Positions 28,120-41,931 of a stretch of 64,000 nt of DNA are shown piece by piece. How positions within the stretch are numbered: the stretch's first letter is position 1; each line of letters starts with the position of its first letter. The position numbers and the translations under genes were made by a program. Below the pieces are notes generated by a model. The model saw only the letters and a program-made list of their open reading frames with translations, searched no databases and had not been told where the DNA came from. The DNA comes from an uncultured Verrucomicrobia subdivision 3 bacterium (GTDB lineage Bacteria; Verrucomicrobiota; Verrucomicrobiia; Limisphaerales; UBA11358): assembly GCA_903850425.1 (NCBI GenBank), contig CAINLR010000183.1, forward strand, positions 32,752 through 96,751, read 5' to 3'.

Positions 28120-28181
28120 GAAAGCTTACTGCACGAAGGCGGGCCTGTCAGGTGGCATGAATTGGCCATAGCCAAGGGCCA

Positions 28182-28655
28182 TTAAATCTGTGTGTGTTTG
28201 GAATTGGATGGGCTGGCTCGTTCGCGTCCATCAGGTGATCTGCGTTGGACGTCGCTTCTGAAACGACGCGGCGGGAACCGCCACCAACTGCCGACCACCG
28301 CCAGGCCAAATAGAGAATAGCCAGCGATGAAAACCCACGCCGGGGCTTCGTAATAGAGCAGGCTTTGCAGCCAGTGCGCGATGAAGCCGCCGCCATAGGT
28401 CGCCTCACCGGCGCGTTCGCGGAGGTGCATCTCCAGCGTGGTCAGCGGGCAAGTGACGCCGAGCCACGCCTGCACGACGACCAGACCAATCCCGGCAAGA
28501 TGGAGGACTCGAAACCAGGGATTGCGAATCCAGTTCCAACTGCGGAATCCACCGATGGAGATCAACCCCAAGCCCGCCACGACCACCACGACAAAGGCCA
28601 CATGCGCGATGAGCACCAAGTCAGCCAACGCGTGATAGAGACCGGTGTGGGTCAT
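28182..28655 (-). CDS. DUF2784-like small membrane protein
   Basis: Start set at MTHTGLYHALADLVLIAHVAFVVVVVAGL (28655); the listed extension overlaps the upstream gene. It has 4 TMs, and the CPLTTLE motif is typical of the family as I recall it. Confidence 0.55.
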   Translation of the reverse strand: MTHTGLYHALADLVLIAHVAFVVVVVAGLGLISIGGFRSWNWIRNPWFRVLHLAGIGLVVVQAWLGVTCPLTTLEMHLRERAGEATYGGGFIAHWLQSLLYYEAPAWVFIAGYSLFGLAVVGSWWRFPPRRFRSDVQRRSPDGRERASPSNSKHTQI

Positions 28656-28657
28656 CT

Positions 28658-31600
28658 TCAATAGTTTGATTCGAGGAGTTTCACCGGCCCCATCAAACCG
28701 GATTTCAACAATGGAGTTTCCTTGGTGAACGGTTCCCACGAACTCCAGGTGAATCGCTGGGCCGCCGGCAGCGCGGCGTCGCCGATCATCCGGTTCGGCC
28801 ACAGGTTGGCGACGGAAATTTCCAGTCGGTTTTCGCCGCGCCGGAGCGCCTGAGTCACTTCCACTTGATACGGCTGCTTCCACGCGATGCCGCAATCCTG
28901 TCCGTTGAGCTTCACCCGCGCCATCACTTGCACTTCGCCGAGCGCAAGGAGGAATTTTGAAGTTTTCATTTCTGGTTTTGCGCCTTGGAAACTAAATGTC
29001 GTTGCATATGTCGCCGTGCCGGAGAAATGTTTCACGCCGTCGTCCGCCACGTCGCTCCATGAAACCAAGTTGGTCAGCATTACCTCTGCCGGTGCGCCCC
29101 GCTTGGGCGGAAAACTCAACTGCCACGGCCCGGTGATTTCTCTGGGTGACACGACCGTAGTGATTTCGGCGCGGCTCGTCCGGCCGGAAGCGGTGGTCCA
29201 TTCGTAGTTGCCTGGTTCATGGGCGACGAGATGCAAATGACTGGCGGAATCGCCGACGATCTCCGCCGGCCGCTCGGGTGCCGACACCACGGGCTGGAGG
29301 CTGACGGTTTCAGGATCTTTGCCAGACGCTTGCAAGGTCTTTCCATCCACGGAGTATTCCACGGAAAAAGTTTTCACCACGCCGTAAGCCGGATCGCCTG
29401 CCCCAGCCAGTTCCGCGACCTGAAAAGTAGTCTGGCCGTCATTGACCATGGTCTGCACTTGGGCGCGCACATCCCGCGTGCGCTGGGCATCGCCGGGCAC
29501 GCCATAGGTGGCGCGTTGAATCTCCAAGCGGGCCGAGGCCGCGAGCGGCTCCGGCACAGACTGACCGTTGCGCCGTAAACTCACGACGGGATCAAAGCCT
29601 TGGGTGCTTTGGCGGAAGACGATGAAGGCCGACGCACTTGGCTCAAAACGCCATGGCACCGTGATGGCGGTTGAGGTTTTCTCGTAAGTCGCCAGCGGAG
29701 AAATGGCACCCGTCTCAGGATTCCACAATTCCGGTCGCAATCCTCGCACACGAAACGTGCAGCGGGTTTCCACGGCGACACCGGCGGGGTTCGCCACGAA
29801 ATAAATCTCCGCGCCATCCAATTGACGGTGAATCCAGTTCAAGCTGACGTTCGCGGTGAAATCTGCCGACGCATGCAAGCCTGCCAGAACGGTGGTCAGC
29901 GGCTGGCCCAAAATGAGTTTACCTTTGCCAAGAGTGTGAGCGGTCACCGTCTTGCCGTCACAATCGCCCCAGACTTCACGGCCAAGCTGGATCACCTGGT
30001 CGTCGCACTGGGGAAAGCCCTGCAAACTCGGCGAGGTGGTGGGGCTTTGCGTGCTGGCCAGAACGGTGGCCCCAGCAGAAACCAGGTCGCGAATTTTCCG
30101 GGCCAGCGCCGGCGTCATGTTCTTTTCCGACGGGAGCACCAGCACGCGATAATTGATTCCGTCGGGTAGCACGAGCCTCCCCTTTTTGACGGACACGCGC
30201 TGCATCAAAGCTTCCGCGCTGATTTCGTCAAACCGATAACCAAGCGGCGGCGGCGGGTTGGGATTGAAGTAAGTCTGGTTGGGCGCTTCGGGCCGCAGGT
30301 AGAGCAGGTCGGCCACAAATTTTCCCTGGCGCAGCAGGAACTGGCAGCGGGCCAGATACGCGTGCCACGCGCCGGACATTTCCCACCAGGTCTGCGTGCG
30401 CTCGTAGTGCAGCCCCCACGGCCCCATCGTCGCACCGGGCACGCGGTCGAGATATGGCTGGTGCGCGTAGCGATGGACCACGAATCGGTTTATGCCCTGC
30501 GCAAACTCGAAGTCACCCAGCGCCTTGATATCCGCGGGCGTGAGCTTCCACATCTCATTGTCGCCGGAGGTGAACGCCTCCGCCCCGACAATCGCGCGGC
30601 CATAGACATGCGCCACCGACGCCATCTGCGCGGCCTTGCGATACGTTTCGTTCTGGCCCGGCCGGGTGGCGGTCCAAAATTCCGACATCGGCTCATCGGC
30701 GCGCGCGGTGAAAGTGAACTCGTCGCCGAACGGCAAATTATAACCTTCCAACGAATAGCGCAGCCCGTGCTGATGCGCCAGCTCGCCCAGCCTTCCGGAA
30801 TAATTCTCCGCCAGCAGCTCGGCAATGGTCTGGTTGAAATCCCAGCGGAACCGCGCGGTCGCTGCCGCATCGCCAAGCATAATCGCCTTCTTATGGTCGC
30901 TCACTCCGGCTCGCAGCGTATCGGTCAGGCACGGCAGCCACGGCAGCGGATCGTAGCCGCGCCGCTGCAAAAACTCCGCGCGGAATTTCGGCGTCCAGTT
31001 CTGGCTCCCCACTTCCCAACTGTCAATGTGCGTGGCGGTGAGTGACTTGCCCGCGAGCGGCCCAGCCGTCTGGATGAGCTTGGCCATCATGCCGGCAAAA
31101 TGCGCGTCGATCCCGGCCCGACTGAGCTTGTCGCACTCCAGGCCATTGCCGCCCGCCACCGGCGGACGCGTCGAGGAACCGGTCGGTGTGTGGCCGATGC
31201 GCTGCAGCACCCACTCGCCCGGTGGCACGGCCCATGTCAATTTCCCATCCGCCATCAACTGTTTGCTTAAATTCACCACCGCGCTGGTGGCGACCACCTG
31301 ATTCGTCGTCGCCGGAAAAGCCAGCAGCGCGATGTCGGCGTAGTAGTCCTTGAATAGAACTTGGGAATCAAAGCCGTCGCGGTTGCGATTGCCAAAGTTC
31401 GGCACTGGCAGAGCCATGGAAAGATTCGTCGGACCGGTCACCACCAGATTCGTCCAGACGAGTTTCTGCATGGACAACTCGGGCGTGATCCACGGCCCGC
31501 TGCTGCCGCACCAACCCGGCCCGTTGGCCATGTTGATTTCCAAGCCGAGACGCGCGGCCTCTGACACCGAGAATTGAAACAGCCGCTGCCATTCCGGATT

Positions 31601-31864
31601 CATGAATTCAGCGGAGCCGCGCGGCGGCGCGAACCGTTCCAGCACGTCCATGATGAGCACGCCGCCGATGCCCACGCGCCGCATTGCTTCGAGGTCGGCG
31701 GTGATGCCGTTGGAGGTGACATTGCCGTTGTTCCAAAACCAATAGACCCACGGCCGCGCGAAATCTGGCGGCTGCTGAAACTGTTTTGCCGTCCCATCCA
31801 GCGGTTTCGCCGGCAGCGAAAAAATCGCCGCCGCCCAAGTCATCAGGACCAATAATCGCTGCAT
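28658..31864 (-). CDS. Secreted glycoside hydrolase (GH106-like / jelly-roll glycosyl hydrolase family; specificity unknown)
   Basis: Start set at MQRLLVLMTWAAAIFSLPA (signal peptide). The N-terminal PWVYWFWNNGNVTSNGITADLEAMRRVGIGGVLIMDV and the C-terminal sugar-binding-type module (FSGTATYATTF ... VKLNGQDCGIAWKQPYQVEV ... ISVANLWPNRMIGD) match this large hydrolase family from memory. Confidence 0.6.
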   Translation of the reverse strand: MQRLLVLMTWAAAIFSLPAKPLDGTAKQFQQPPDFARPWVYWFWNNGNVTSNGITADLEAMRRVGIGGVLIMDVLERFAPPRGSAEFMNPEWQRLFQFSVSEAARLGLEINMANGPGWCGSSGPWITPELSMQKLVWTNLVVTGPTNLSMALPVPNFGNRNRDGFDSQVLFKDYYADIALLAFPATTNQVVATSAVVNLSKQLMADGKLTWAVPPGEWVLQRIGHTPTGSSTRPPVAGGNGLECDKLSRAGIDAHFAGMMAKLIQTAGPLAGKSLTATHIDSWEVGSQNWTPKFRAEFLQRRGYDPLPWLPCLTDTLRAGVSDHKKAIMLGDAAATARFRWDFNQTIAELLAENYSGRLGELAHQHGLRYSLEGYNLPFGDEFTFTARADEPMSEFWTATRPGQNETYRKAAQMASVAHVYGRAIVGAEAFTSGDNEMWKLTPADIKALGDFEFAQGINRFVVHRYAHQPYLDRVPGATMGPWGLHYERTQTWWEMSGAWHAYLARCQFLLRQGKFVADLLYLRPEAPNQTYFNPNPPPPLGYRFDEISAEALMQRVSVKKGRLVLPDGINYRVLVLPSEKNMTPALARKIRDLVSAGATVLASTQSPTTSPSLQGFPQCDDQVIQLGREVWGDCDGKTVTAHTLGKGKLILGQPLTTVLAGLHASADFTANVSLNWIHRQLDGAEIYFVANPAGVAVETRCTFRVRGLRPELWNPETGAISPLATYEKTSTAITVPWRFEPSASAFIVFRQSTQGFDPVVSLRRNGQSVPEPLAASARLEIQRATYGVPGDAQRTRDVRAQVQTMVNDGQTTFQVAELAGAGDPAYGVVKTFSVEYSVDGKTLQASGKDPETVSLQPVVSAPERPAEIVGDSASHLHLVAHEPGNYEWTTASGRTSRAEITTVVSPREITGPWQLSFPPKRGAPAEVMLTNLVSWSDVADDGVKHFSGTATYATTFSFQGAKPEMKTSKFLLALGEVQVMARVKLNGQDCGIAWKQPYQVEVTQALRRGENRLEISVANLWPNRMIGDAALPAAQRFTWSSWEPFTKETPLLKSGLMGPVKLLESNY

Positions 31865-32106
31865 AATATCAAGTTGTTGCGGCCAGATTGTAAACGATTC
31901 ACCGGCGACTGCACTGACAAATACCCGGTGCGGGCCGACGCAATCATCAATGCATTCGAATAAATCCCCTTTGGCTTGCTCCGAACCACCGAACCGGATA
32001 TTGCTGAGGGCATGGGTTTGCACGGTGGTTGCGCTGGTTGCAACCGCACGGTTTGCAACCGGTATTCATCAGCCGAACGATCGTAATTATCCGTGGTTAA
32101 TTTCCT

Positions 32107-32847
32107 GTGAGCATCGCCCCAGAAAACATCACCGCCGTCATCCTGGCCGGCGGCTTTGGCACACGCATCAAACATCTGCTGGGCGATCTGCCCAAGCCGA
32201 TGGCCCCGGTGAACGGCAAGCCGTTTGTCGAATGGGTGGTCCGCTATCTCGCCGCGCAGGGTATCCGCAATGTCATCCTCTCCACCGGCTACCTCGCAGC
32301 GACGGTGGAAAATCATTTTGCGCCGCAACCGGTGAAAAATGTCCGCGTCACCGGCGTGCCGGAAACCACGCCGCTCGGAACGGCGGGCGGTTTTCTGAAT
32401 GCAGCACAGAGCACGGAAAAAAATCCGGAAGCCTGGCTCGTGCTGAATGGCGATTCGCTGGCGGTAGCGCCTCTCGAAAAATTGTTCCGATCACTCGACC
32501 AACCGGAAATCGCCGGCGGCATCCTCGGTGTGCCGATGGCGGACGCCTCGCGTTTCGGCACTCTTTCGCAGAATGCGCAGGGCGAACTGGCGGGTTTCAA
32601 CGAAAAGAAACCAGGCGCGGGCAACATCAACGCCGGTGTGTATCTTTTCCGCGCAGACACGCTGAAAGAGTTTCCTGCGAAGTCGCCGCTGAGTTTCGAG
32701 ACCGACGTGTTTCCCGCGTTGATCGGCAGCAGGGTGCGCTTGAAAACGATCGTGAGCGACGCGCCTTTCCTCGACATCGGCACGCCCGACTCGCTGCCAC
32801 AGGCGGAAGATTTCGTTCGAAATAATCTCGCGCACTTTGCGCTCTGA
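32107..32847 (+). CDS. Sugar-1-phosphate nucleotidyltransferase (HddC / mannose-1-P guanylyltransferase-like)
   Basis: GTG start. Motifs are AVILAGGFGTRIKHLLGDLPKPMAPVNGKPF and NAGVYLF. Confidence 0.8.
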   Translation: MSIAPENITAVILAGGFGTRIKHLLGDLPKPMAPVNGKPFVEWVVRYLAAQGIRNVILSTGYLAATVENHFAPQPVKNVRVTGVPETTPLGTAGGFLNAAQSTEKNPEAWLVLNGDSLAVAPLEKLFRSLDQPEIAGGILGVPMADASRFGTLSQNAQGELAGFNEKKPGAGNINAGVYLFRADTLKEFPAKSPLSFETDVFPALIGSRVRLKTIVSDAPFLDIGTPDSLPQAEDFVRNNLAHFAL

Positions 32848-32853
32848 TCCGTT

Positions 32854-33372
32854 ATGGCCACTCCCAATCCCGAACGCAAAACCGTTTTCGCCACGCCGTG
32901 GTTCCAGGTGCTGGAAGCGCCCAGTGGCGGCAAGCACCCGAATTATTCCATCAACTCGCCGGACTTCGTCTGCATCATCGCGGTGACGGAGAACCATGAA
33001 TTACTGCTGGTCCGGCAGTTTCGTCATGCGGTCGGCACGTTCACGCTGGAACTGCCGGCCGGCCACGTCGAAAAGGACGAAACGCCGGTGCAGGCGGCGC
33101 GCAAGGAATTGCTCGAAGAGACAGGTTATGTGGCGGACACCTTTGAGTTGATCGCCGACCTGTCGCCCTCGCCGGCGCGGTTCACGAACCGGATGTGGTG
33201 CTATTTTGCCGCGAACGCCCGACGTGCTCCCGAGGCTGAACTGGAGGCCGGTATGAGTTGCGTTCTGCACACGCAAGGACTGCCAGCGCTGCTTCGCGAA
33301 CCAGATTTTTACAGCATGGGCAACTGGGCGGCAATCATGGCGGCGGTGGCCCAGGGAAAGCTGCAGCTGTGA
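32854..33372 (+). CDS. NUDIX hydrolase (NDP-sugar hydrolase candidate)
   Basis: Nudix box GHVEKDETPVQAARKELLEETGY. Confidence 0.85.
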   Translation: MATPNPERKTVFATPWFQVLEAPSGGKHPNYSINSPDFVCIIAVTENHELLLVRQFRHAVGTFTLELPAGHVEKDETPVQAARKELLEETGYVADTFELIADLSPSPARFTNRMWCYFAANARRAPEAELEAGMSCVLHTQGLPALLREPDFYSMGNWAAIMAAVAQGKLQL

Positions 33373-33532: not shown

Positions 33533-34606
33533 ATGATCATCAGCAGAACTCCATTTCGCATCTCGTTTTTTGGCGGCGGCACGGATTACCCGGCGTGGTA
33601 TCGGCAGCACGGCGGCGCGGTGCTGGCGGCGACCATCAACAAGTATTGCTACCTGACGTGCCGTTACCTGCCGCCGTTTTTTGAGCACCGCATCCGCGTC
33701 GTCTATTCCAAGATCGAGAACTGTCAGAAGCCGGAGGAAATTCAGCATCCATCGGCGCGCGAGACGCTGCGCTTTTTGAAAATCGCGCGCGGCATTGAAA
33801 TTCATCACGACGGCGATTTGCCCGGTCGCAGCGGCATGGGCTCGAGTTCGGCGTTTACCGTCGGGTTGTTGAACGCGCTTTACGCCTTGCAAGGTCGCGC
33901 GGTTGGCAAAAAGCAGCTCGCCTCGGAGAGCATCCACATCGAGCAGGACATCTTGAAAGAAATGGTCGGCTCACAGGATCAGGTCTGCGCGGCTTACGGC
34001 GGCTTGAACCGCATCAGCTTTCTGCAGAACGGCGAATTTTCGGTGCAGCCCATGACGCTGACGCATGAGCGGGTGGAGGAATTGACCTCGCATCTGATGC
34101 TGTTTTACACCGGCATCAAGCGCACAGCGGCTTCGGTGGCGACGAGTTTTGTGCCGAGCATCACCGAGCGCTCGGCATTGCTGAACAAGATGCGCGACTG
34201 CGTGGACCAAGGCTGTGAAATCCTAAACGGCAACGGCGACCTAGCGCCGTTCGGCGACCTGCTGCATGAGGCGTGGCTCGCGAAGCGCGGTTTGAGCGAC
34301 AAGATTTCCAACGAGCAAGTGGATGCGGCTTACGATGCCGCCCGGGCGGCGGGCGCGCTTGGCGGAAAGCTGCTGGGCGCGGGCGGTGGCGGATTTTTGC
34401 TGGTATTCGCCCCACCGGCTAAACACGCCAAGATCAAGAAACAGTTGAACCGGCTGATTCACGCGCCCTTCAAGTTCGAGTTCGGCGGCAGCCAGGTGAT
34501 TTTCCACGAATTGGAGGAAGATTATTCAGCGCATGACAAGGCCCGCGACAAACAACAGATCGAGGCGTTCCGTGAGTTGGACGCGAGTGCGCCGGGGGCG
34601 AGCTGA
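33533..34606 (+). CDS. GHMP-family sugar kinase (HddA / D-glycero-D-manno-heptose-7-phosphate kinase-like)
   Basis: MIISRTPFRISFFGGGTDYPAWY, GHMP motif GDLPGRSGMGSSSAFTVG, and C-terminal GGKLLGAGGGGFLL. Confidence 0.8.
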   Translation: MIISRTPFRISFFGGGTDYPAWYRQHGGAVLAATINKYCYLTCRYLPPFFEHRIRVVYSKIENCQKPEEIQHPSARETLRFLKIARGIEIHHDGDLPGRSGMGSSSAFTVGLLNALYALQGRAVGKKQLASESIHIEQDILKEMVGSQDQVCAAYGGLNRISFLQNGEFSVQPMTLTHERVEELTSHLMLFYTGIKRTAASVATSFVPSITERSALLNKMRDCVDQGCEILNGNGDLAPFGDLLHEAWLAKRGLSDKISNEQVDAAYDAARAAGALGGKLLGAGGGGFLLVFAPPAKHAKIKKQLNRLIHAPFKFEFGGSQVIFHELEEDYSAHDKARDKQQIEAFRELDASAPGAS

Positions 34607-34735: not shown

Positions 34736-35335
34736 ATGACCGCCCAAGATTTGATCGCCTTTGAGACGGAGATTGCGGATTTGTTTAATGCCGCAAAAAT
34801 CCGCGCGCCCATCCATCTTTACTACGGCAACGAGGAAAAGATGATTGAGCTGTTCCGTGATGTGAAGCCGGAAGACTGGGTGTTCTGCTCCTGGCGCAGT
34901 CACTATCAGTGCCTGCTGAAAGGCGTGCCGCCGGAAGAATTGAAGGCGGAAATTCTCGCGGGCCACTCCATTTCACTCTGCTTCCCGAAACAGCGCGTGG
35001 TGTCGTCGGCGATTGTCGGCGGCATCATCCCCATTGCGGTCGGTGCGGCGCTGGGTCTCAAACGCAGCGGCCAAGAAGGCATGGTGCATTGCTTCGCCGG
35101 CGAAATGACGAGCGAGACGGGAATCTTCCACGAGAGCGTGAAGTATTCTTACAATCACCAACTCCCGATCCGCTTCATTGTCGAGGACAATGGCAAATCC
35201 GTCTGCACGGACACGCGCGAGGCGTGGAACCAGCCGGTGTTGAGCTATGAAAACAACACCCATCCGCTGGTAACCTTCTACAAGTATCAAACCAAATATC
35301 CGCACGCCGGAGCCGGCTCGCGCGTTCAATTTTAA
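34736..35335 (+). CDS. ThDP-dependent enzyme, E1 alpha-like PP-domain subunit (short form, 199 aa)
   Basis: The ThDP-binding-type segment GGIIPIAVGAALGLKRSGQEGMVHCFAGEMTSETGIFHESVKYSYNHQLPIRFIVEDNG has the spacing of GDG-X26-NN but reads GEM...DN. It is much shorter than the E1 alpha lengths I recall. Confidence 0.6.
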   Translation: MTAQDLIAFETEIADLFNAAKIRAPIHLYYGNEEKMIELFRDVKPEDWVFCSWRSHYQCLLKGVPPEELKAEILAGHSISLCFPKQRVVSSAIVGGIIPIAVGAALGLKRSGQEGMVHCFAGEMTSETGIFHESVKYSYNHQLPIRFIVEDNGKSVCTDTREAWNQPVLSYENNTHPLVTFYKYQTKYPHAGAGSRVQF

Positions 35336-35347
35336 TTTTATTTTTGC

Positions 35348-35884
35348 ATGAAGTATTTTGACGAACTTTGCCGCGCGATGGAATACCTCGCGCGCGACCA
35401 GCGGACGATGTTTCTCGGCCAGGCGGTCGCCTGCCCTGGAACGGCGATGACGAACACGCTGAAGAATGTGGCACGGGAAAAACTCTTGGAACTGCCCGTC
35501 ACGGAAGATTTACAGATGGGCATGTCCACCGGCCTCGCACTCACGGGCATCGTGCCGGTGAGCATTTATCCGCGCTGGAATTTTCTGCTCTGCGCGGTGA
35601 GCCAACTGGTCAGCCATTTGGACAAGCTGCCCGCCATGTCTGCCGGCGGCTACCAGCCGAAGGTGATTATCCGCACGGGCATCGGTTCGGAGCGCCCGCT
35701 GCACCCGCAGCAACAGCACGTCGGCGATTTCACGGACGCGTTCCGGCTGATGTGCAAAAACATCGAGGTCATCCGCCTCGACGAACCTGAACACATTTTC
35801 CCGGCCTACCAAAAAGCATTGGAACGCGAGGACGGCAAGAGCACAATCATTGTTGAATATGGCGACTACTACAGCGAAAAGTGA
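35348..35884 (+). CDS. ThDP-dependent enzyme, E1 beta-like Pyr-domain subunit (short form, 178 aa)
   Basis: FLGQAVACPGTAMTNTLKNV ... ELPVTEDLQMGMSTGLALTGIVPV resembles the transketolase/E1-beta pyrimidine-binding domain (catalytic Glu context PVTED). No C-terminal transketolase_C domain is present. Confidence 0.6.
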   Translation: MKYFDELCRAMEYLARDQRTMFLGQAVACPGTAMTNTLKNVAREKLLELPVTEDLQMGMSTGLALTGIVPVSIYPRWNFLLCAVSQLVSHLDKLPAMSAGGYQPKVIIRTGIGSERPLHPQQQHVGDFTDAFRLMCKNIEVIRLDEPEHIFPAYQKALEREDGKSTIIVEYGDYYSEK

Positions 35885-37070
35885 ACCCGTGACCGCAGCA
35901 AACCTGCGCGACTGGCCCCTGATGTCCAACAACATCACGCGCGGCGACTTGGATGCCCTGATTGAATTCCTCAAGCAGGACGATCCGATTCTCACACAAT
36001 CAAAGAACGTCATCGCCTTCGAGCAGGAATGGTCCGAATGGGTGGGCGTGAAGCACAGCGTCTTCGTCAACTCCGGTTCCTCCGCGAACCAGATCACGAT
36101 GGCCGCCCTCCGCGAGCGTTTCGGCCCCGGCGAAGTCATCGTGCCAACGCTGACGTGGGTTTCGGACATCGCCTCCGTGCTGCAAGCGGGCTTTGATCCG
36201 GTGTTTGTGGATATCAATCCGCGCACGCTCGGCATGGACACGGCGCAAGTCATCGCTGAATTAAACAGCAGCACGCGCGCGGTATTCCTCACGCACATCC
36301 TCGGCTACAACGCGCTCGATCAGGTTTTACTCGACGAGTGCCAGAAGCGCAACATCCCGATCATCGAGGACGTCTGCGAATCGCACGGCGCGACGTTCAA
36401 AGGCAAACGCCTTGGCGCCTATGGCTTCGCCTCGAATTTCTCGTTTTACTACGCGCACCACATGAGCACCATTGAAGGTGGCATGGTGTGCACGAATGAC
36501 TACGAGTTCTACGAAATGCTCCGCATGTTCCGCTCGCATGGCATGGTGCGCGAGAGCAAGGACGCGGCCCTGAAGGCGCGCTACCAATCTGAATTCCCGG
36601 ATTTGAACCCCGATTTCATCTTCGCGTTTCCGGCCTACAACGTCCGCAGCACGGAAATCAACGCCGTGCTGGGTCGCACGCAATTGAAGCGTCTTGACGC
36701 CAACAACGCGAAGCGCACGCGCAACCTGAATTGCTTCCTCGACAATCTGGACCCGAAGAAGTTCTACACCGACTTCGACCGCGAGGGCAGTTGCAACTAC
36801 GCCTTCACGCTCGTTCTGCGGGAAGCGGATCAGGCGCTCTGGGATCGCGTCGAAAAAACGTTGCGTGGACGCAAGATTGAATTCCGTCGCGGCACGTCCG
36901 GCGGCGGCAATCAGCTGCGCCAGCCGTTCCTGCGCAAACTGCTCGGCGACGAGTTTGAAAAGTATCCGGCCGTCAACCACGTCCATTTCTTCGGTGCCTA
37001 CATCGGCAATTATCCCGACCTCGAAACCGATCGCATCGCGGCGCTCTGTCAGTTGCTCAATTCCATTTGA
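35850..37070 (+). CDS. DegT/DnrJ/EryC1-fold PLP/PMP enzyme of the sugar 3-dehydratase type (ColD / E1-like, His replaces Schiff-base Lys)
   Basis: FVNSGSSANQ, EDVCESHGA, and SNFSFYYAHHMSTIEGG, where the paralog at 43283-44392 has CFSFYPGKNLGAAGEGG. The start is uncertain (35850 or 35859); either overlaps the upstream gene by 26-35 nt. Confidence 0.7.
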   Translation: MLNMATTTAKSEPVTAANLRDWPLMSNNITRGDLDALIEFLKQDDPILTQSKNVIAFEQEWSEWVGVKHSVFVNSGSSANQITMAALRERFGPGEVIVPTLTWVSDIASVLQAGFDPVFVDINPRTLGMDTAQVIAELNSSTRAVFLTHILGYNALDQVLLDECQKRNIPIIEDVCESHGATFKGKRLGAYGFASNFSFYYAHHMSTIEGGMVCTNDYEFYEMLRMFRSHGMVRESKDAALKARYQSEFPDLNPDFIFAFPAYNVRSTEINAVLGRTQLKRLDANNAKRTRNLNCFLDNLDPKKFYTDFDREGSCNYAFTLVLREADQALWDRVEKTLRGRKIEFRRGTSGGGNQLRQPFLRKLLGDEFEKYPAVNHVHFFGAYIGNYPDLETDRIAALCQLLNSI

Positions 37071-37073
37071 TTT

Positions 37074-38597
37074 ATGAATCGCCCGCTGGATGTCCTTTTT
37101 GTAAACGCCGATTCGTCGGCCCTGGCTTATCAAGATTTGAGCAAGGATTTCTCAGCGATTGAACCGCCCACGTGGGCGCTGCTGCTCGCGCAAGCCTGCC
37201 GTTCCAATGGTTTTGGCGTGGCCATCCTCGACTGCGGCGCAGAACGGCTCTCGGAGGAACAATCCGTCAAGCGAATTGAAGAAATGCCCGCACGGCTAGT
37301 TTGCTTTGTGGTTTACGGCCAGAATCCGAATTCCGGCACGACCAACATGATCGGCGCGACTTCGCTGGCCCGAAAACTGAAGGCAGCGAAGCCGGACACC
37401 AAGACCTGTTTTGTCGGCTCGCACACCAGCGCATTGCCGATGGAAGTAATCTCGCTCAAGGAAGTGGATTTCATCCTGCTAAATGAAGGCGTTTATGCGC
37501 TGCAGAATCTGTTGCGGACGGATTTGCAGTCCAGCCTCGACCAGGTCAAAGGCATCGGCCACAAGCAAGGCGGCGCGCCCATGCTGAACGCGCCAGAGAT
37601 GGTCGTGCCGAACGAGCGGATGGATATTGATCTGCCGGGCTATGCGTGGGATCTGCTGCCCTACAAGAATACGCCGCTGGATTTGTATCGCGCCCACTTC
37701 TGGCACGCGGAGTTCAACCACGATCTGCGCACACCGTTCGCCGCGATCTATACGTCGCTGGGCTGCAAATTCAAATGCGATTTCTGCATGATCAACATCG
37801 TCAACCGCACGGACAATGCGGATGGCGTGGTCTCGGCAAATTCGCCGAACATGCGGTTCTGGTCGCCGCAGTTCATGCTCAAGGAATTTGAAAAGCTTGC
37901 CGCGATGGGCGCAAAGACCATCCGCGTCTCGGACGAGATGTTCTTCCTGAACAAGAACTATTACGAGCCGCTGCTGGACGGACTCATCGAACGCCAGTTG
38001 GACTTGCGGATGTGGACCTATTCCCGCATTGACACCGTGCGTCCGCAGTATCTGGAGAAATTCCGCAAGGCGGGCATCAACTGGCTGGCACTGGGTGTCG
38101 AGGCCGGCAACCAACTGGTGCGCCGCGAAGTTTCCAAAGGCAGTTTTCAGGACGTCAACATCCGCGAAGTCATCAAGACCGTCCGCGAATCCGGCTTGTA
38201 TGTCATTTCCAATTACATCTTCGGCTTTCCCGAAGATACGCACGACACGATGCAGCAAACGCTCGATCTCGCACTGGAACTGAACACGGAGATGGCCAAC
38301 ATGTATCCGTGCCAGGCGCTGCCGGGCAGCCCGCTTTATTACACGGCCAAGGCGAACGGCTGGAAACTCCCCTCCTCGCCGAGCGGCTATGGATTCCTTT
38401 CCTACGACAGCGAACCGTTGCCGACGAAGCATCTCTCCGCCGCACAGGTGCTGAAATTCAGAGATGAAGCCTGGAAGACCTATTTCACCAATCCGGCTTA
38501 CTTGCAGTCGGTGGAAAAAACCTTCGGCCCGCAGCAGCGCAAAAATGTCGAGGCCATGGCCAGTTTCCGGTTGAAACGGAAATTGCTGGGCGATTAA
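37074..38597 (+). CDS. B12-binding-domain radical SAM enzyme (class B, methyltransferase-like)
   Basis: N-terminal Rossmann-like B12 domain (VLFVNADSS...AILDCGAE...FVVYGQNP), then a CX3CX2C cluster SLGCKFKCDFCMI. 507 aa. Confidence 0.8.
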   Translation: MNRPLDVLFVNADSSALAYQDLSKDFSAIEPPTWALLLAQACRSNGFGVAILDCGAERLSEEQSVKRIEEMPARLVCFVVYGQNPNSGTTNMIGATSLARKLKAAKPDTKTCFVGSHTSALPMEVISLKEVDFILLNEGVYALQNLLRTDLQSSLDQVKGIGHKQGGAPMLNAPEMVVPNERMDIDLPGYAWDLLPYKNTPLDLYRAHFWHAEFNHDLRTPFAAIYTSLGCKFKCDFCMINIVNRTDNADGVVSANSPNMRFWSPQFMLKEFEKLAAMGAKTIRVSDEMFFLNKNYYEPLLDGLIERQLDLRMWTYSRIDTVRPQYLEKFRKAGINWLALGVEAGNQLVRREVSKGSFQDVNIREVIKTVRESGLYVISNYIFGFPEDTHDTMQQTLDLALELNTEMANMYPCQALPGSPLYYTAKANGWKLPSSPSGYGFLSYDSEPLPTKHLSAAQVLKFRDEAWKTYFTNPAYLQSVEKTFGPQQRKNVEAMASFRLKRKLLGD

Positions 38598-38603
38598 CTC
38601 GCC

Positions 38604-39557
38604 ATGAAAAAGGTTCTCGTCACCGGCGGCACCGGCTTTGTCGGCAAACACCTGCAATCGGAACTCACGCGACGCGGCATCGCCCACTTCGCGTTTGGCG
38701 GACGTCAGTTCGACCTGACCAAATGGGATCAAGCCAAAGCCGTCTTCCAGCAACATCAGGATGTGGATTTGATTCTGCACCTGGCCAGTTTTCAAGCGGC
38801 GGGAGAATTTCCCGGCCAGCACACGGCGGAACAATACTTCGTCAATACTCTCATCCACAGCCACACGCTGGAGGCTTGGCGGAAGTTTATTCCCGGTGCC
38901 AAGCTGATCACCGTTGGCGCTTCGTGCGCGTATCCGAGCGCGGCGCAGGGGATGACCGAGGATAAGTTTTTCGAGGGTGCCATCCACGGCAGCGTTTATT
39001 CCTACGGCGCGACCAAGCGAATGCTTTATACCGGCATCCTTGCTTACAACGACCAATACAAACTGAACGGCAGCTACGTTGTTCCGGCCGCGATGTATGG
39101 CGAAGCTGACGATTTTAACGAGGCGACGGCGCACGTTCCGGCCGCGCTAGTCGGGCGTTTTGCCCGCGCGGTGAAGTCCAACGCGCCGGAAGTGGAGATC
39201 TGGGGCGACGGCTCCCAGGTGCGCGATTTCATGGACGTGAAGATATTTGTAAATGGGCTGCTCGACATCGCGCCACGCCTGGATCACGATTTGATTAACC
39301 TCGTCCCGCATGGCGGAAAAACTGTGAAGGAGCTGGCACTCACCGTCTGTGAAGCTTCGGGCTATCAAGGCAAAGTGGTATTCAACGCCAACCGTTACAC
39401 CGGTGCTAAGGAAAAATTTCTGGATGCCAACAAGCTGCGGGAAAAGTTCGGCATGGTCATCAATGGCGACCTCGCCCCCGGCATCCGCCGCACGATGGAT
39501 TGGTATTTCGCAAATTACGAAGCCGTGAAGGACCGGCGAAAGTTTCCGAAAACATGA
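38604..39557 (+). CDS. NAD(P)-dependent sugar epimerase/reductase (GDP-L-fucose synthase / ColC-like SDR)
   Basis: KVLVTGGTGFVGKHL, with catalytic YSYGATK (YxxxK). Confidence 0.8.
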   Translation: MKKVLVTGGTGFVGKHLQSELTRRGIAHFAFGGRQFDLTKWDQAKAVFQQHQDVDLILHLASFQAAGEFPGQHTAEQYFVNTLIHSHTLEAWRKFIPGAKLITVGASCAYPSAAQGMTEDKFFEGAIHGSVYSYGATKRMLYTGILAYNDQYKLNGSYVVPAAMYGEADDFNEATAHVPAALVGRFARAVKSNAPEVEIWGDGSQVRDFMDVKIFVNGLLDIAPRLDHDLINLVPHGGKTVKELALTVCEASGYQGKVVFNANRYTGAKEKFLDANKLREKFGMVINGDLAPGIRRTMDWYFANYEAVKDRRKFPKT

Positions 39558-40735
39558 GTTCGCCAACCATTCATCCGGGCGAGATCACCATCATTATGGC
39601 CACGCGCGGCCGGCCAGAGATGCTCGCGCAGGTTTTCGCCTCACTCAAAGCCCACACCGCACAGAAAGACAAGGTCTGCATCTGGCTTTATGTGGACGAG
39701 GACGATCGGGTGACACGGGATGCGATTGAGGCGGGGAAATTGAGCGATGCCGGCATCAAGATCAACTGGCACTTCGGCGGCCAGACTGCCGGCCTTTGTG
39801 AAACACAGCACACGCTCTGGCACAATTCCGGCCACACGTCCGAGATCTACATGATCACCTGCGACGACGCCGTTTACAGCACGCCCGGCTGGGACGACGT
39901 GCTGCGCGACGCTTCCAAACAATTTCCCGATGGCATATTTGTGGCCAGTCCGCATGACCCGATGACGGCGGACACCTGCACGTATCCCATCTTCGGCTGG
40001 CGCTGGCTGGAAACGTTGCAGACGATTTTCCCCGGGCATTTTCCCTACTGGTATGATGACCGCTGGGTGCATCAAATTGGTGAGCTGAGCGGAAGGTTTG
40101 TCTGGCTTTCCATTGTGATGAATGGCATTCGGGGCAAGGGAAAAACCCGGCGCATGCGTGACTTGCCGTTTTGGGCACGTTTCTTCCAACTCGCGCTCGA
40201 CGAACGAAAAACTTCTGCGAAAAAACTGATTGAAGCCATGAATCTTGACCCTGCAAACAAGCAAGCCGCTCTCGCAAAAGCGGACCAACGCGCGACGGAA
40301 ATTGAGGCGCAACAGGACAAGAAATTCTCCGACCTTTACGCGGTGTTTCAGGAAGAACGGTTCACGTTGCATACTCCGGAGGAGCGGCGCGCGTGGAATC
40401 CGGCTTATTTCCAGAAGGAATCCGCCGCCGTGGCGCAAATGCTTGGCTATGCCCAGCAGCGCATCGCTGAAAAAAAATTCGAGGAGGCGCTGAAGTTCAT
40501 TGATGCCACGTTCATGTCCAATCTGCGCGTCCGGCAGGCGCAGGACATGAAGGTGGCATGCCTCCGCGCGCTGGGCAGAAACGCCGAAGCGGACAAACTC
40601 GCCGGTGAAGTTCTGGCTGCGTGGCCTGAAATGAATGCCGCCCGCCGCCTGTTTCGTTTTCTCGGCATGGTTGCCAGCGACGGCAAAGCCATGGTCGTCG
40701 GTTTTCTTTCCGGCGGCGGCAAGAAAAAGAAATGA
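39554..40735 (+). CDS. GT-A-like glycosyltransferase candidate with helical C-terminal half
   Basis: ATG 39554 overlaps the upstream stop (ATGA). N-terminal EITIIMATRGRPEML ... LYVDEDD ... ITCDDAV resembles a GT2-like fold with acidic motifs. The C-terminal roughly 180 aa is helical and TPR-like. The family call is weak. Confidence 0.4.
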   Translation: MSSPTIHPGEITIIMATRGRPEMLAQVFASLKAHTAQKDKVCIWLYVDEDDRVTRDAIEAGKLSDAGIKINWHFGGQTAGLCETQHTLWHNSGHTSEIYMITCDDAVYSTPGWDDVLRDASKQFPDGIFVASPHDPMTADTCTYPIFGWRWLETLQTIFPGHFPYWYDDRWVHQIGELSGRFVWLSIVMNGIRGKGKTRRMRDLPFWARFFQLALDERKTSAKKLIEAMNLDPANKQAALAKADQRATEIEAQQDKKFSDLYAVFQEERFTLHTPEERRAWNPAYFQKESAAVAQMLGYAQQRIAEKKFEEALKFIDATFMSNLRVRQAQDMKVACLRALGRNAEADKLAGEVLAAWPEMNAARRLFRFLGMVASDGKAMVVGFLSGGGKKKK

Positions 40736-41931
40736 CTTACGACACGGTCATTGTGGGCGGCGGGATCGTCGGACTGGCGACGGCTTTTCGGTTATTGGAA
40801 GCGAGGCCGCAGTTGAAAATTTTGCTGCTTGAGAAAGAGGCGAAACTCGCCGCGCATCAGACCGGCAACAACAGCGGTGTCCTCCATTCGGGACTTTACT
40901 ACAAACCCGGTTCGGAGAAGGCGCGTCTGAGCGTCAGCGGACTGCAACAGATTATCGCCTTCTGCCGCGAGCACGGCATCGCGCACGAGCAGTGCGGAAA
41001 AATCGTGGTCGCGACCACCAAGGAAGAAGTGGAACAGCTTGAAAATTTATGGACGCGGGGCAACGCGAACGGGCTCCTCGGCTTGCGGAAACTGAATCCC
41101 GCGCAGATCAAGGAGATCGAACCTCATGCCACCGGGCTGGCGGCGATTCATGTGCCGCAGGAAGGCATCGTGGATTATCCCGCGGTTTGCGAGAAACTCG
41201 GCGAACTCATCCGCCTGCGCGGCGGCGAAATCAAGCTCAACACCCGCGTGGAAAAAATTCTTCCCGCTGGCGGCGAAAAGGTGGTTGAAACTTCCGCTGG
41301 AACATTTCGCGCCAAGTTCGTCATTGCGTGCGGCGGGTTGCACGCGGACCGGCTCGTGAAAGCCGCCGGGCAAAAACCGACCGCCAAGATCATTCCGTTT
41401 CGCGGCGAATATTTTCAGATCAAAAAAGCGCGGCAGCATCTGGTCCGGCATTTGATCTACCCCGTGCCCGATCCGAAGTTTCCCTTCCTCGGCGTGCATT
41501 TCACCCGCTTGGTGCATGGCGGCATTGAAGCCGGACCCAATGCCGTGCTCGCCTTCGCGCGCGAAGGCTACAAATGGACGGACGTGAACGTGCGCGATCT
41601 GGCGGAATCGCTGTGCTTTCCCGGCTTGTGGAAATTTCTGGCGAAATATCCAAGCCTGTGCGGCTACGAAATTCGCCGCTCGCTCTCCAAAGCTGAGTTC
41701 TGCCGATCCTTGCAAAAGCTCGTGCCGGACATCCGCGAGGACGATTTGGAAACGGGCGGGGCCGGCGTGCGCGCACAGGCGATGCTGCCGGACGGAAAAC
41801 TGGTGGAAGATTTTCACTTCGACGAGGCCCCCGGCATTCTGCACGTCGTCAACGCGCCATCGCCCGCCGCCACGGCGTCGCTCGCGATCGGGCAGACGAT
41901 TTGCCAGCGGGTATTGCCTTCGCTGAGTTAG
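40732..41931 (+). CDS. lhgO: FAD-dependent L-2-hydroxyglutarate oxidase-like protein
   Basis: MTYDTVIVGGGIVGLATAFRL ... LLLEKEAKLAAHQTGNNSGVLHSGLYYKPGS closely follows the LhgO N-terminus as I recall it. The start overlaps the upstream stop (ATGA 40732-40735). Confidence 0.75.
   Translation: MTYDTVIVGGGIVGLATAFRLLEARPQLKILLLEKEAKLAAHQTGNNSGVLHSGLYYKPGSEKARLSVSGLQQIIAFCREHGIAHEQCGKIVVATTKEEVEQLENLWTRGNANGLLGLRKLNPAQIKEIEPHATGLAAIHVPQEGIVDYPAVCEKLGELIRLRGGEIKLNTRVEKILPAGGEKVVETSAGTFRAKFVIACGGLHADRLVKAAGQKPTAKIIPFRGEYFQIKKARQHLVRHLIYPVPDPKFPFLGVHFTRLVHGGIEAGPNAVLAFAREGYKWTDVNVRDLAESLCFPGLWKFLAKYPSLCGYEIRRSLSKAEFCRSLQKLVPDIREDDLETGGAGVRAQAMLPDGKLVEDFHFDEAPGILHVVNAPSPAATASLAIGQTICQRVLPSLS

What the first reader, a model, noticed from the sequence alone, without database searches (positions are those of the whole stretch)
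34736..35884. Minimal two-subunit ThDP enzyme (PP-domain + Pyr-domain only) with a variant cofactor motif
The alpha-like subunit is 199 aa and the beta-like subunit 178 aa, each roughly half the length I recall for 2-oxoacid dehydrogenase E1 subunits. The beta-like protein has no transketolase C-terminal domain. The ThDP-Mg motif has canonical spacing but reads GEM-X26-DN (CFAGEMTSETGIFHESVKYSYNHQLPIRFIVEDNG) instead of GDG-X(25-30)-NN. The pair looks like a stripped-down carboligase or transketolase-type catalyst. It is plausibly a transferase that adds a two-carbon (or larger acyl-anion) unit to a keto-sugar.
Basis: partly seen in the sequence, partly recalled or inferred. Interest (0 to 1): 0.55.

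Follow-up and report, generated by a model that had tools for sequence, protein, structure and literature searches.

The report
Minimal two-subunit thiamine enzyme, heptose cassette
Two small adjacent genes encode an intact, stripped-down relative of the pyruvate-dehydrogenase E1 enzyme that sits in a widely shared gene set for modifying a seven-carbon sugar, where it most likely attaches a short carbon branch to make a cell-surface sugar nobody has yet described.

Summary
ORFs 34736-35335 (199 aa) and 35348-35884 (178 aa) are true E1-alpha and E1-beta homologues, about half the usual length, and the motif reads GEM-X26-DN.

They are not remnants. These lengths recur in thousands of database proteins. 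AlphaFold models are confident (pLDDT 96 and 93). They superpose on human E1-alpha residues 37-268 (Z 20.6) and on E1-beta residues 3-179 (Z 24).

The residues known to be catalytic in E1 are kept:
- alpha H27, R54, D/E123, N152 and H190;
- beta E53 and H124.

The "variant" motif is minor. The family consensus is G-D-M, and D and E interchange among close relatives.

The beta gene follows the alpha gene in 71 of 73 related loci from many phyla. The pair travels with:
- an HddA-like kinase and a nucleotidyltransferase;
- a ColD-type 3-dehydratase;
- an SDR that closely matches PDB 6vo6, which I recall to be the heptose C4-dehydrogenase Cj1427;
- a B12-radical-SAM enzyme;
- sometimes GmhA and GmhB.

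Cyanophages carry a fused alpha-beta form next to a different heptose-activation set.

Best reading (confidence about 0.55): an E2-independent carboligase that adds an acyl-anion unit, probably two carbons from pyruvate, to a nucleotide-activated keto-heptose. The function is inferred, not shown.

Earlier follow-ups of this scan reached the same reading on other genomes. Verdict: a new variant of a known kind.

The parts
34736..35335 (+). Mini-E1 alpha: the ThDP diphosphate-binding (PP) domain subunit, 199 aa. Key residues: H27, R54/H56, G122-E123-M124 (nt 35099-35107), E150-D151-N152 (nt 35183-35191), P189-H190 (nt 35300-35305).
   Evidence: Pfam E1_dh 1.8e-15. AF2 pLDDT 96.4. Residues 1-195 superpose on human E1-alpha 37-268, Z 20.6, rmsd 2.1 A over 191 residues. 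Profile alignment to human E1-alpha maps H27 to H63, R54 to R90, position 123 to D167 and N152 to N196.
35348..35884 (+). Mini-E1 beta: the aminopyrimidine-binding (Pyr) domain subunit, 178 aa. Key residues: E53 (nt 35504-35506) and Q123-H124 (H at nt 35717-35719). No C-terminal E2-binding domain.
   Evidence: Pfam Transket_pyr 1.4e-7, with no Transketolase_C. AF2 pLDDT 92.9. Residues 1-178 superpose on E1-beta 3-179, Z 24, rmsd 1.6-1.7 A over 172 residues. E53 aligns with human beta-E59. Q123-H124 align with human beta Q127-H128. E53 and H124 are invariant in 38 sequences.
32107..32847 (+). Context: HddC-like / mannose-1-phosphate-type sugar-1-phosphate guanylyltransferase.
   Evidence: NCBIfam man1P_GTase 3.6e-43 and HddC 5.1e-38, both below the curated cut-offs. 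A homologue is present in 43 of 73 related loci.
32854..33372 (+). Context: NUDIX hydrolase.
   Evidence: Pfam NUDIX 1.9e-16. Found in only 4 of 73 related loci, so it is not part of the core.
33533..34606 (+). Context: HddA-like GHMP sugar kinase (anomeric kinase).
   Evidence: GHMP_kinases_N and _C. NCBIfam HddA 1.7e-39, below cut-off. Present in 54 of 73 related loci, usually right next to the pair.
35850..37070 (+). Context: ColD-type PMP-dependent sugar 3-dehydratase (DegT fold, His in place of the Schiff-base Lys). The true start is probably some 20-25 codons downstream of 35850.
   Evidence: Best solved relative is ColD/WbdK, 2gms, at 1.3e-43. The query's 'AHH' aligns with ColD's 'SHH'. 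Present in 52 of 73 loci.
37074..38597 (+). Context: B12-binding radical SAM enzyme.
   Evidence: Pfam B12-binding plus Radical_SAM. Best NCBIfam match is HpnJ, far below cut-off. Present in 39 of 73 loci.
38604..39557 (+). Context: Fcl-like SDR (GDP-4-keto-sugar epimerase/reductase type).
   Evidence: NCBIfam GDP-L-fucose synthase 3.2e-40, below cut-off. Best PDB match is GDP-fucose synthetase 1bsv at 4.7e-32.
39500..40735 (+). Context: 411-aa protein without any family match.
   Evidence: No Pfam or NCBIfam hit. No hit covering at least 60% of this protein in the 73 related loci. Short 24-28% matches occur in three loci.
40732..41931 (+). Context: L-2-hydroxyglutarate oxidase (LhgO). Its start overlaps the stop of the preceding gene.
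   Evidence: NCBIfam PRK11728 2.7e-164, above the cut-off. Also present in five related loci, four of them at 59-61% identity.

Best explanation
The two genes encode the PP-domain and Pyr-domain subunits of a minimal, catalytically competent E1-type thiamine-diphosphate (ThDP) enzyme. By analogy with E1 it is presumably an alpha2beta2 assembly. It has lost everything that couples E1 to a lipoyl-E2 core: the beta C-terminal domain, and the alpha N-terminal 36 and C-terminal ~93 residues. It works as a free-standing carboligase inside a horizontally mobile cassette that tailors a nucleotide-activated heptose.

Proposed steps:
1. ThDP, activated by beta-E53 and held through Mg2+ by alpha-E123 and alpha-N152, attacks a 2-oxo acid. 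Pyruvate is the most likely donor.
2. Decarboxylation gives the hydroxyethyl-ThDP enamine.
3. This acyl-anion equivalent adds to a carbonyl carbon of the activated sugar. The most likely acceptor is C4 of a (3-deoxy-)4-keto-heptose, made by a C4-dehydrogenase that closely matches PDB 6vo6 (recalled as Cj1427) and by the ColD-type 3-dehydratase. Alpha-H27, alpha-H190 and beta-H124 would serve as acid/base groups.
4. The product is a C-acetyl-branched heptose, which the SDR(s) and the B12-radical-SAM enzyme process further before transfer to a surface glycan.

Shown here: homology, fold, residue conservation, alpha-beta coupling, and cassette composition. Inferred: the donor, the acceptor position, the order of steps and the product.
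For: Real and conserved:
- One search found 7,873 hits; the best 120 are mostly 199 aa.
- One search found 110 clusters (at 50% identity) with E <= 1e-30, mostly 195-220 aa.

Catalytic kit intact:
- Alpha residues H27, G103, G122, N152 and H190 are invariant; D123 is more than 90% conserved.
- Beta residues E53, R76, H90, Q123 and H124 are invariant.
- D and E swap at position 123 among close relatives.

Confident complete domains.

The two subunits act together:
- Beta directly follows alpha in 71 of 73 loci.
- Natural alpha-beta fusions exist: P0183, P0208, P0279, P0280 and the cyanophage P-TIM68 CDS.

Sugar context in the 73 loci: GHMP kinase 54, ColD-type DegT 52, nucleotidyltransferase 43, SDR matching PDB 6vo6 in 41, B12-rSAM 39. 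GmhA-like SIS proteins, an HddC-GmhB fusion, an RmlC-like epimerase, Wzm/Wzt and GT2 genes also occur.
- The Nitrospira SDR matches PDB 6vo6 at 4e-109.
- An SDR-alpha fusion exists, P0278.
- Cyanophages pair the enzyme with a non-homologous activation set, a PfkB kinase plus a cytidylyltransferase-like enzyme. The record also annotates a phosphoheptose isomerase there.

No E2 partner:
- No E2 or E3 gene lies in the operon.
- P0001 finds no second E1-alpha-like gene in the genome at E <= 0.001.

Precedent: E1 alpha/beta pairs are the proposed installers of C2 branches on keto-sugars. KbDH-alpha/beta has been shown to couple pyruvate to ketone sugar analogues in vitro (PMC12247030, PMC4425429, PMC4753412).
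Against: - No biochemical data exist for any member of the mini family. The donor, acceptor and product are unknown.
- The specific tie to heptose rather than hexose pathways hints that the C6/C7 side chain could be the target instead of C4.
- A minority of loci lack the 3-dehydratase (for example L069 and L071).
- This operon has no C4-dehydrogenase or 4,6-dehydratase of its own. The only close homologue of the 6vo6-matching SDR lies on another contig.
- Kinship of the mini family to the AviB/KbDH clade was not tested, because no sequences were on hand.
- No heteromer model with ThDP could be made.
- That PDB 6vo6 is Cj1427 rests on my memory.
Confidence: 0.55

Rival explanations
1. This is a ThDP carboligase or ketol-transferase acting elsewhere on the heptose skeleton. 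It could extend the chain at an oxidised C6/C7 side chain. Alternatively it could do transketolase- or DXS-like chemistry on a sugar phosphate before the kinase and nucleotidyltransferase steps. The product would be a higher-carbon (C8-C9) sugar rather than a C4-branched one.
For: - The pair is tied to heptose activation by two non-homologous routes: GHMP kinase plus NTP-transferase in bacteria, and PfkB kinase plus cytidylyltransferase-like enzyme in cyanophage.
- In SAR11 and phage loci it lies among the early genes, next to GmhA and the kinase.
- Aldehydes are better acceptors than ketones for ThDP enzymes (general knowledge).
- Several cassette SDRs weakly resemble the heptose 6-epimerase.
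- An APH kinase-alpha fusion exists, P0221.
Against: - Sequence and fold are clearly closer to E1 (Z 20.6 and 24) than to transketolase or DXS (Z 14-19).
- The strongest partners, the ColD-type dehydratase and the SDR matching PDB 6vo6, both make or need a 4-keto nucleotide sugar.
Confidence: 0.22
2. This is a plain 2-oxo-acid decarboxylase or an acyloin-cleaving enzyme. It would only supply or remove a small aldehyde/acyl unit for the pathway, like the minimal sulfopyruvate and phosphonopyruvate decarboxylases or acetoin-cleaving E1. It would form no C-C bond on the sugar.
For: - The PP + Pyr-only architecture is the one used by the ComDE and Ppd decarboxylases (own knowledge).
- LhgO in this operon produces 2-oxoglutarate, a possible substrate.
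- E1-family enzymes include acetoin-cleaving ones (PMC12247030).
Against: - No enzyme that would use a free aldehyde is conserved in the cassette.
- LhgO is present in only 5 of 73 loci. It is better explained as recycling the L-2-hydroxyglutarate that the Cj1427 reaction produces (PMC10680097).
- The tight, cross-phylum coupling to nucleotide-sugar enzymes and the SDR-alpha fusion point to the sugar as the substrate.
Confidence: 0.12
3. The pair is a degenerate, non-catalytic remnant of a 2-oxo-acid dehydrogenase E1, or a conventional E1 that still serves an E2 core.
For: Both proteins are about half the canonical length, the GDG motif is altered, and both score far below the NCBIfam PDH cut-offs.
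Against: - The lengths and all catalytic residues are conserved across phyla, archaea and phages.
- Identity between phyla is high, at 65-72%.
- The models are confident.
- Some members carry inteins. From general knowledge, inteins favour conserved sites of functional proteins.
- The E2-binding domain is absent and no E2/E3 genes are nearby.
Confidence: 0.03

Closest known systems
E1-alpha/beta-type ('alphaKADH2') sugar C-branching enzymes of actinomycete antibiotic pathways: AviB1/AviB2 (avilamycin), Pau11/Pau12 (paulomycin), AlmDI/DII (aldgamycin), KbDH-alpha/beta (kibdelomycin)
   Same: These are two-subunit E1-like ThDP enzymes encoded inside deoxy/keto-sugar clusters, with no E2. They use pyruvate to place a C2 (acetyl) branch on a keto-sugar. 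KbDH-alpha/beta has been shown in vitro to couple pyruvate to ketone analogues (PMC12247030, PMC4425429, PMC4753412).
   Different: - Those subunits are full length (Pau11 325 aa, Pau12 345 aa). The pair here is 199 + 178 aa, with no beta C-terminal domain.
- The context here is primary surface-glycan loci, with a heptose pathway, Wzm/Wzt and GT2 genes, in Gram-negative bacteria, CPR bacteria, archaea and cyanophages. It is not actinomycete secondary metabolism.
- Direct sequence kinship to that clade was not tested.
Heterotetrameric 2-oxo-acid dehydrogenase E1 (PDH/BCKDH E1 alpha2beta2; e.g. human 1ni4, Thermus 1um9, Geobacillus 1w85)
   Same: This is the best sequence and fold match. It shares the ThDP-Mg motif spacing, the cofactor-activating beta-Glu, and the equivalents of alpha-His63, alpha-His263 and beta-His128.
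   Different: - The pair lacks alpha residues 1-36 and 269-361, plus about 40 internal residues.
- It lacks the whole beta C-terminal domain that docks E2.
- No E2 or E3 genes are present.
- It scores far below the NCBIfam equivalog cut-offs (89.7 bits against 393.85).
YerE / ErwE-type ThDP carboligases (decarboxylase/acetolactate-synthase superfamily) of yersiniose, erwiniose and caryophyllose pathways
   Same: They share the proposed chemistry: an acyl-anion from a 2-oxo acid is added to C4 of a nucleotide-activated 3,6-dideoxy-4-keto sugar made by a 3-dehydratase (PMC9306805).
   Different: They belong to an unrelated ThDP superfamily. They are single-chain, with domains in the order Pyr-middle-PP, and YerE is a flavoprotein. 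Their substrates are CDP-hexoses.
Campylobacter jejuni GDP-heptose modification pathways (GmhA, HddA, GmhB, HddC, Cj1427 C4-dehydrogenase, C3-dehydratase, epimerases, C4-reductases)
   Same: The surrounding cassette uses homologues of these enzymes. These include an SDR matching PDB 6vo6 (recalled as Cj1427), a ColD-type 3-dehydratase and Fcl-like SDRs (PMC10680097).
   Different: None of the 20 heptose-pathway enzymes listed for C. jejuni in PMC10680097 is a ThDP enzyme or a B12-radical-SAM enzyme. Those two are the additions here.
Minimal PP+Pyr ThDP enzymes (sulfopyruvate decarboxylase ComDE, phosphonopyruvate decarboxylase) and split transketolase (PDB 6yak/6yaj)
   Same: They show the same idea of a ThDP catalyst reduced to, or split into, PP and Pyr modules. 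The split transketolase is a lower-ranking structural match (Z 15.7 and 18.2).
   Different: ComDE and Ppd belong to the decarboxylase superfamily, with Pyr preceding PP (own knowledge). The split transketolase's Pyr-domain chain is 303 residues against 178 here, and by my recollection it keeps the transketolase C-terminal domain. The pair here is an E1-lineage minimal form.

Membership tests
2-oxo-acid dehydrogenase E1, heterotetrameric type (Pfam E1_dh + Transket_pyr + Transketolase_C) | ThDP-Mg2+ motif GDG-X(25-30)-NN in the alpha subunit | tested here: met
   GEM-X26-DN has the human spacing. The carboxylate at position 123 is D in 78 and E in 4 of 82 sequences. N152 aligns with human N196.
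2-oxo-acid dehydrogenase E1, heterotetrameric type (Pfam E1_dh + Transket_pyr + Transketolase_C) | Cofactor-activating Glu and catalytic His in the beta Pyr domain; catalytic His residues in alpha | tested here: met
   Beta E53 aligns with human E59, and Q123-H124 with Q127-H128. Alpha H27 aligns with H63. The match of H190 to H263 is inferred from the superposed ranges 1-195 and 37-268.
2-oxo-acid dehydrogenase E1, heterotetrameric type (Pfam E1_dh + Transket_pyr + Transketolase_C) | Beta C-terminal (Transketolase_C) domain that binds the E2 peripheral-subunit-binding domain | tested here: not met
   The protein ends at residue 178, equivalent to E1-beta residue 179. There is no Transketolase_C hit. 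Beta has a median length of 180 aa in 53 loci.
2-oxo-acid dehydrogenase E1, heterotetrameric type (Pfam E1_dh + Transket_pyr + Transketolase_C) | Full-length alpha subunit and a score above the curated family cut-offs | tested here: not met
   Only E1_dh profile positions 6-175 of 300 are covered. TIGR03182 scores 89.7 bits against a cut-off of 393.85. The beta NF006667 scores 38.7 against 321.
2-oxo-acid dehydrogenase E1, heterotetrameric type (Pfam E1_dh + Transket_pyr + Transketolase_C) | Partner E2 (lipoyl acyltransferase) and E3 genes | tested here: not met
   None of the ten operon genes is an E2 or E3. The rest of the genome was not searched for E2.
E1-type sugar C-branching enzymes (AviB1/B2, Pau11/12, AlmDI/II, KbDH-alpha/beta) | Adjacent E1-alpha-like and E1-beta-like genes inside a keto/deoxy-sugar biosynthetic cluster, without E2 | tested here: met
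   The pair is adjacent in 71 of 73 loci. It lies with a ColD-type dehydratase, SDRs, a kinase and a nucleotidyltransferase.
E1-type sugar C-branching enzymes (AviB1/B2, Pau11/12, AlmDI/II, KbDH-alpha/beta) | Full-length subunits (about 325 and 345 aa) | tested here: not met
   199 and 178 aa here, against Pau11 at 325 aa and Pau12 at 345 aa (PMC4425429).
E1-type sugar C-branching enzymes (AviB1/B2, Pau11/12, AlmDI/II, KbDH-alpha/beta) | Sequence clade membership with the characterised enzymes | not tested
   No AviB, Pau or KbDH sequence was available through the tools, so no tree was built.
E1-type sugar C-branching enzymes (AviB1/B2, Pau11/12, AlmDI/II, KbDH-alpha/beta) | Pyruvate-dependent carboligation onto a ketone acceptor | not testable with these tools
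   This needs an enzyme assay.
YerE-type ThDP carboligases (decarboxylase superfamily) | Single chain with TPP_enzyme_N / _M / _C domains | tested here: not met
   The only Pfam families found for the two window proteins are E1_dh and Transket_pyr, on two chains.
Transketolase / split transketolase | Transketolase-type PP and Pyr domains plus a C-terminal domain; best similarity to transketolases | tested here: not met
   E1 chains outrank transketolase and DXS chains (Z 20.6 against 14-16 for alpha; Z 24 against 17-19 for beta). There is no C-terminal domain.

The most novel reading that the evidence does not exclude
The pair is the smallest natural E1-lineage ThDP catalyst. Together with the B12-radical-SAM enzyme, it would make a heptose-derived, C-branched or carbon-extended deoxy sugar that has not been described. 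That sugar would decorate the surfaces of very abundant environmental microbes (SAR11, SAR116, Nitrospira, Verrucomicrobiota, CPR bacteria and archaea). It is also carried by cyanophages, which implies a role in host-surface remodelling or phage-host recognition.
Probability: 0.45. Interest if true: 0.72.

Novelty: new variant of a known kind. Interest (0 to 1): 0.58.

Why it matters
If the reading is right, several things follow.

- E1-type ThDP chemistry needs only about 380 residues in all (a PP core plus a Pyr core). That makes the pair an attractive small scaffold for enzymatic formation of tertiary alcohols.
- ThDP-dependent sugar branching, so far known from a few enterobacterial and mycobacterial LPS sugars and from actinomycete antibiotics, would extend to heptose pathways across much of the microbial world, including SAR11, Nitrospira and cyanophages.
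- There would be an undescribed class of surface sugars. Such sugars could matter for phage recognition, grazing resistance and O-antigen capping.

The question is directly testable with the published C. jejuni GDP-heptose enzyme toolbox.

Tried and rejected
- **Erwiniose / caryophyllose idea.** I considered that the cassette makes these sugars (heptose plus a radical-SAM methyl plus a C2 branch). I rejected this. PMC9306805 shows they are hexoses branched with long 2-oxo acids by YerE-type enzymes.
- **Pseudogene remnants.** Rejected on conservation.
- **A conventional PDH E1.** Rejected: no beta C-terminal domain and no E2/E3 genes.
I took gene context from the search for related loci and the genome search instead.
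- **Alignment A1** was too diverse to seed search for related loci. A narrower alignment, A2, worked.
- **Plasmid collection:** no homologue at E <= 1e-15.
- **Unexplained fusion partners.** The N-terminal ~300 residues of the ~500-aa alpha fusions P0274-P0277 match nothing in the operon or the loci.
- **PDB 6vo6.** I could not confirm from a held paper that it is Cj1427. That identity rests on my memory.
- **Literature.** Searches linking heptose with ThDP found no relevant paper.
Full report
**1. The observation**

The window has two co-directional ORFs, 34736-35335 (199 aa, P0001) and 35348-35884 (178 aa, P0002), separated by 12 nt.
- P0001 matches Pfam E1_dh (E = 1.8e-15), but only profile positions 6-175 of 300.
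- P0002 matches Transket_pyr (E = 1.4e-7) over almost the whole 174-position profile. It has no Transketolase_C domain.
- The NCBIfam PDH E1-alpha and E1-beta models match far below their cut-offs.
- The best solved relatives by sequence are heterotetrameric E1 subunits.
- The motif is G122-E123-M124, 26 residues, D151-N152. This is the spacing of human GDG-X26-NN.

The description is correct at the stated coordinates.

**2. Not remnants**

- A word-indexed search returned 7,873 hits. The best 120 are at least 77% identical and nearly all exactly 199 aa. Sources name them only 'thiamine pyrophosphate-dependent enzyme' or 'E1 alpha'.
- An exhaustive search of 50%-identity representatives gave 110 clusters at E <= 1e-30 and 643 at E <= 1e-10. 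The full-length ones are mostly 195-220 aa.
- In 82 representatives position 123 is D in 78 and E in 4. Position 124 is M, G or A. N152 is present in 77 of the 82 and is invariant in the 49 full-length sequences of alignment A1.
- Among close relatives of this window's protein, GEM (73) and GDM (15) alternate; 32 of the 120 did not fit my pattern. The 'variant' is therefore a conservative Asp/Glu swap on a family motif G-D-[M/G/A]...[D/N]-N.
- Invariant alpha residues are H27, G103, G122, L143, N152 and H190.
- Invariant beta residues include E48, E53, R76, H90, Q123 and H124.

**3. Structure and catalytic residues**

AlphaFold2 gives pLDDT 96.4 for alpha and 92.9 for beta.

Alpha subunit:
- Residues 1-195 superpose on human E1-alpha 37-268 (Z 20.6, rmsd 2.1 A over 191 residues). 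Transketolase and DXS rank lower, at Z 14-16.
- The subunit is an E1 PP domain without the first 36 and last ~93 residues, and with ~40 internal residues removed.
- It ends just after the position of the catalytic His263. Conserved P189-H190 corresponds to that His; this is inferred from the matching ranges.
- Profile alignment maps H27 to human H63, R54/H56 to R90/H92, position 123 to D167 and N152 to N196.

Beta subunit:
- Residues 1-178 superpose on E1-beta 3-179 (Z 24, rmsd 1.6-1.7 A over 172 residues). This is a complete Pyr domain that stops at the domain boundary.
- E53 aligns with the cofactor-activating Glu59, and Q123-H124 with Q127-H128.

Everything needed for ThDP activation and acid/base catalysis is kept. 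Everything that serves E2 docking is gone.

**4. The two genes act together**

- Among 73 related loci fetched from species-representative genomes, beta follows alpha in 71.
- Natural alpha-beta fusions exist: P0183, P0208, P0279 and P0280.
- Other fusions join alpha to an SDR (P0278) or to an APH-type kinase (P0221).
- Two members carry inteins.

**5. Context**

In the window the pair lies in a ten-gene, co-directional operon:
- HddC-like guanylyltransferase;
- NUDIX hydrolase;
- HddA-like GHMP kinase;
- alpha and beta;
- ColD-type 3-dehydratase (best PDB match 2gms at 1.3e-43, with 'AHH' aligned to ColD's 'SHH');
- B12-radical-SAM enzyme;
- Fcl-like SDR;
- an unassignable 411-aa protein;
- LhgO.

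Across the 73 loci the recurrent partners are:
- GHMP kinase: 54;
- ColD-type DegT: 52;
- nucleotidyltransferase: 43;
- an SDR at least 45% identical to a Nitrospira protein that matches PDB 6vo6 at 4e-109: 41;
- B12-rSAM: 39.

From memory, 6vo6 is Cj1427, the GDP-heptose C4-dehydrogenase. I could not confirm this from a held paper.

Also seen are GmhA-like SIS proteins, an HddC-GmhB fusion (SAR11), an RmlC-like epimerase, Wzm/Wzt transporters and GT2 enzymes. This is the enzyme repertoire of the C. jejuni GDP-heptose pathways (PMC10680097), with a ThDP enzyme and a radical-SAM enzyme added.

The window's genome has its homologue of the 6vo6-matching SDR (60% identity) in another sugar locus on a different contig, and a GmhA-like gene elsewhere.

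The LhgO at the operon's end fits this picture. Cj1427 re-oxidises its bound NADH with 2-oxoglutarate and releases L-2-hydroxyglutarate (PMC10680097), which LhgO would recycle. That link is an inference.

**6. Distribution**

- Carriers include Verrucomicrobiota, Nitrospira, Burkholderiales (including the cultured Herbaspirillum sp. NPDC101397 and Massilia sp. LXY-6), SAR11, SAR116, Planctomycetota, Bacteroidota, Gemmatimonadota, Actinomycetota, Chloroflexota, Desulfobacterota, CPR bacteria, Woesearchaeota and Methanosarcinales.
- Identity between phyla reaches 65-72%.
- Within the window's own phylum only 3 of 301 sampled genomes carry it. Together these points indicate a horizontally mobile cassette.
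- The T4-like cyanophages P-TIM68 and S-SM2 encode a fused alpha-beta form. It sits next to a PfkB kinase, a cytidylyltransferase-like enzyme, SDRs, a Zn-dependent alcohol dehydrogenase and glycosyltransferases. The record also annotates a phosphoheptose isomerase, which Pfam did not confirm. This looks like an HldE-type heptose activation route that is not homologous to the HddA/HddC route. It gives independent support for a link to heptose.

**7. Mechanism**

The best-supported reading is an E2-independent carboligase. ThDP decarboxylates a 2-oxo acid, most likely pyruvate. The resulting acyl-anion equivalent then adds to a carbonyl of the activated keto-heptose, most likely at C4.

- Full-length E1 alpha/beta pairs are proposed to do this in avilamycin, paulomycin and aldgamycin pathways. 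For kibdelomycin, KbDH-alpha/beta has been shown in vitro to couple pyruvate to ketone sugar analogues (PMC12247030, PMC4425429, PMC4753412).
- YerE does the analogous reaction on a 3,6-dideoxy-4-keto sugar (PMC9306805).
- The donor, the acceptor position, the order of steps and the role of the radical-SAM enzyme are all inferred.
- Chain extension at the heptose side chain, or plain decarboxylation, remain possible.

**8. Comparison and novelty**

- The pair works like the E1-type sugar-branching enzymes. It fails their length criterion, and its clade relationship to them is untested.
- It fails three defining features of dehydrogenase-complex E1: the beta C-terminal domain, full-length alpha, and E2/E3 partners.
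- I found no paper describing this short form or linking ThDP to heptose pathways.
- I rate it a new variant of a known kind.

Earlier follow-ups in this scan, on other genomes (e1-866082, e1-1039271), reached the same reading. I worked out the cassette and the heptose link before reading them. I took only the phage lead from those notes, and I tested it.

Noticed in passing
window 40732-41931 (+): A bona fide L-2-hydroxyglutarate oxidase gene (NCBIfam 2.7e-164) has a start that overlaps the stop of the previous gene. It recurs in five related cassettes, four of them at 59-61% identity. It may recycle the L-2-hydroxyglutarate made by a Cj1427-type, 2-oxoglutarate-dependent heptose C4-dehydrogenase (PMC10680097).
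   Followed up: partly
window 39500-40735 (+): A 411-aa ORF inside the operon has no Pfam or NCBIfam match. No related locus has a hit covering most of it. Short 24-28% matches occur in three loci.
   Followed up: no
proteins P0158 and P0185 (database relatives of the alpha subunit): Some mini-E1 alpha genes carry inteins (Intein_splicing/Hint and LAGLIDADG domains). In P0158 the intein sits after about residue 141, just before the strand that leads to the Mg-binding E-D-N.
   Followed up: partly
L093 (Prochlorococcus phage P-TIM68, KM359505.1 167767-168912) and Synechococcus phage S-SM2: T4-like cyanophages encode a fused alpha-beta mini-E1, annotated 'transketolase central region-containing protein'. 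It lies in a block with a PfkB kinase, a cytidylyltransferase-like enzyme, SDRs, a Zn-dependent alcohol dehydrogenase and glycosyltransferases.
   Followed up: partly
own genome, G000:C131:132496-133425 (L094:8994-9926, -): The genome's only close homologue of the 6vo6-matching SDR (60% identity to the Nitrospira cassette copy) lies on another contig. It sits in a separate sugar locus with further SDRs, a UDP-glucose/GDP-mannose dehydrogenase and large unassignable proteins.
   Followed up: partly
whole genome G000: P0001 finds no second E1-alpha-type gene at E <= 0.001. The organism apparently has no conventional heterotetrameric E1.
   Followed up: no
proteins P0274-P0277 (about 500 aa): In these relatives the mini-E1 alpha is fused behind an N-terminal region of about 300 residues. 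That region matches nothing in the operon or in the 80 loci.
   Followed up: partly
window 24727-32023 (-): Upstream of the operon lie two large glycan-active proteins. One is a 1,121-aa GH106 alpha-L-rhamnosidase-like protein. The other is a 1,130-aa protein with laminin-G and ricin-B lectin domains.
   Followed up: no
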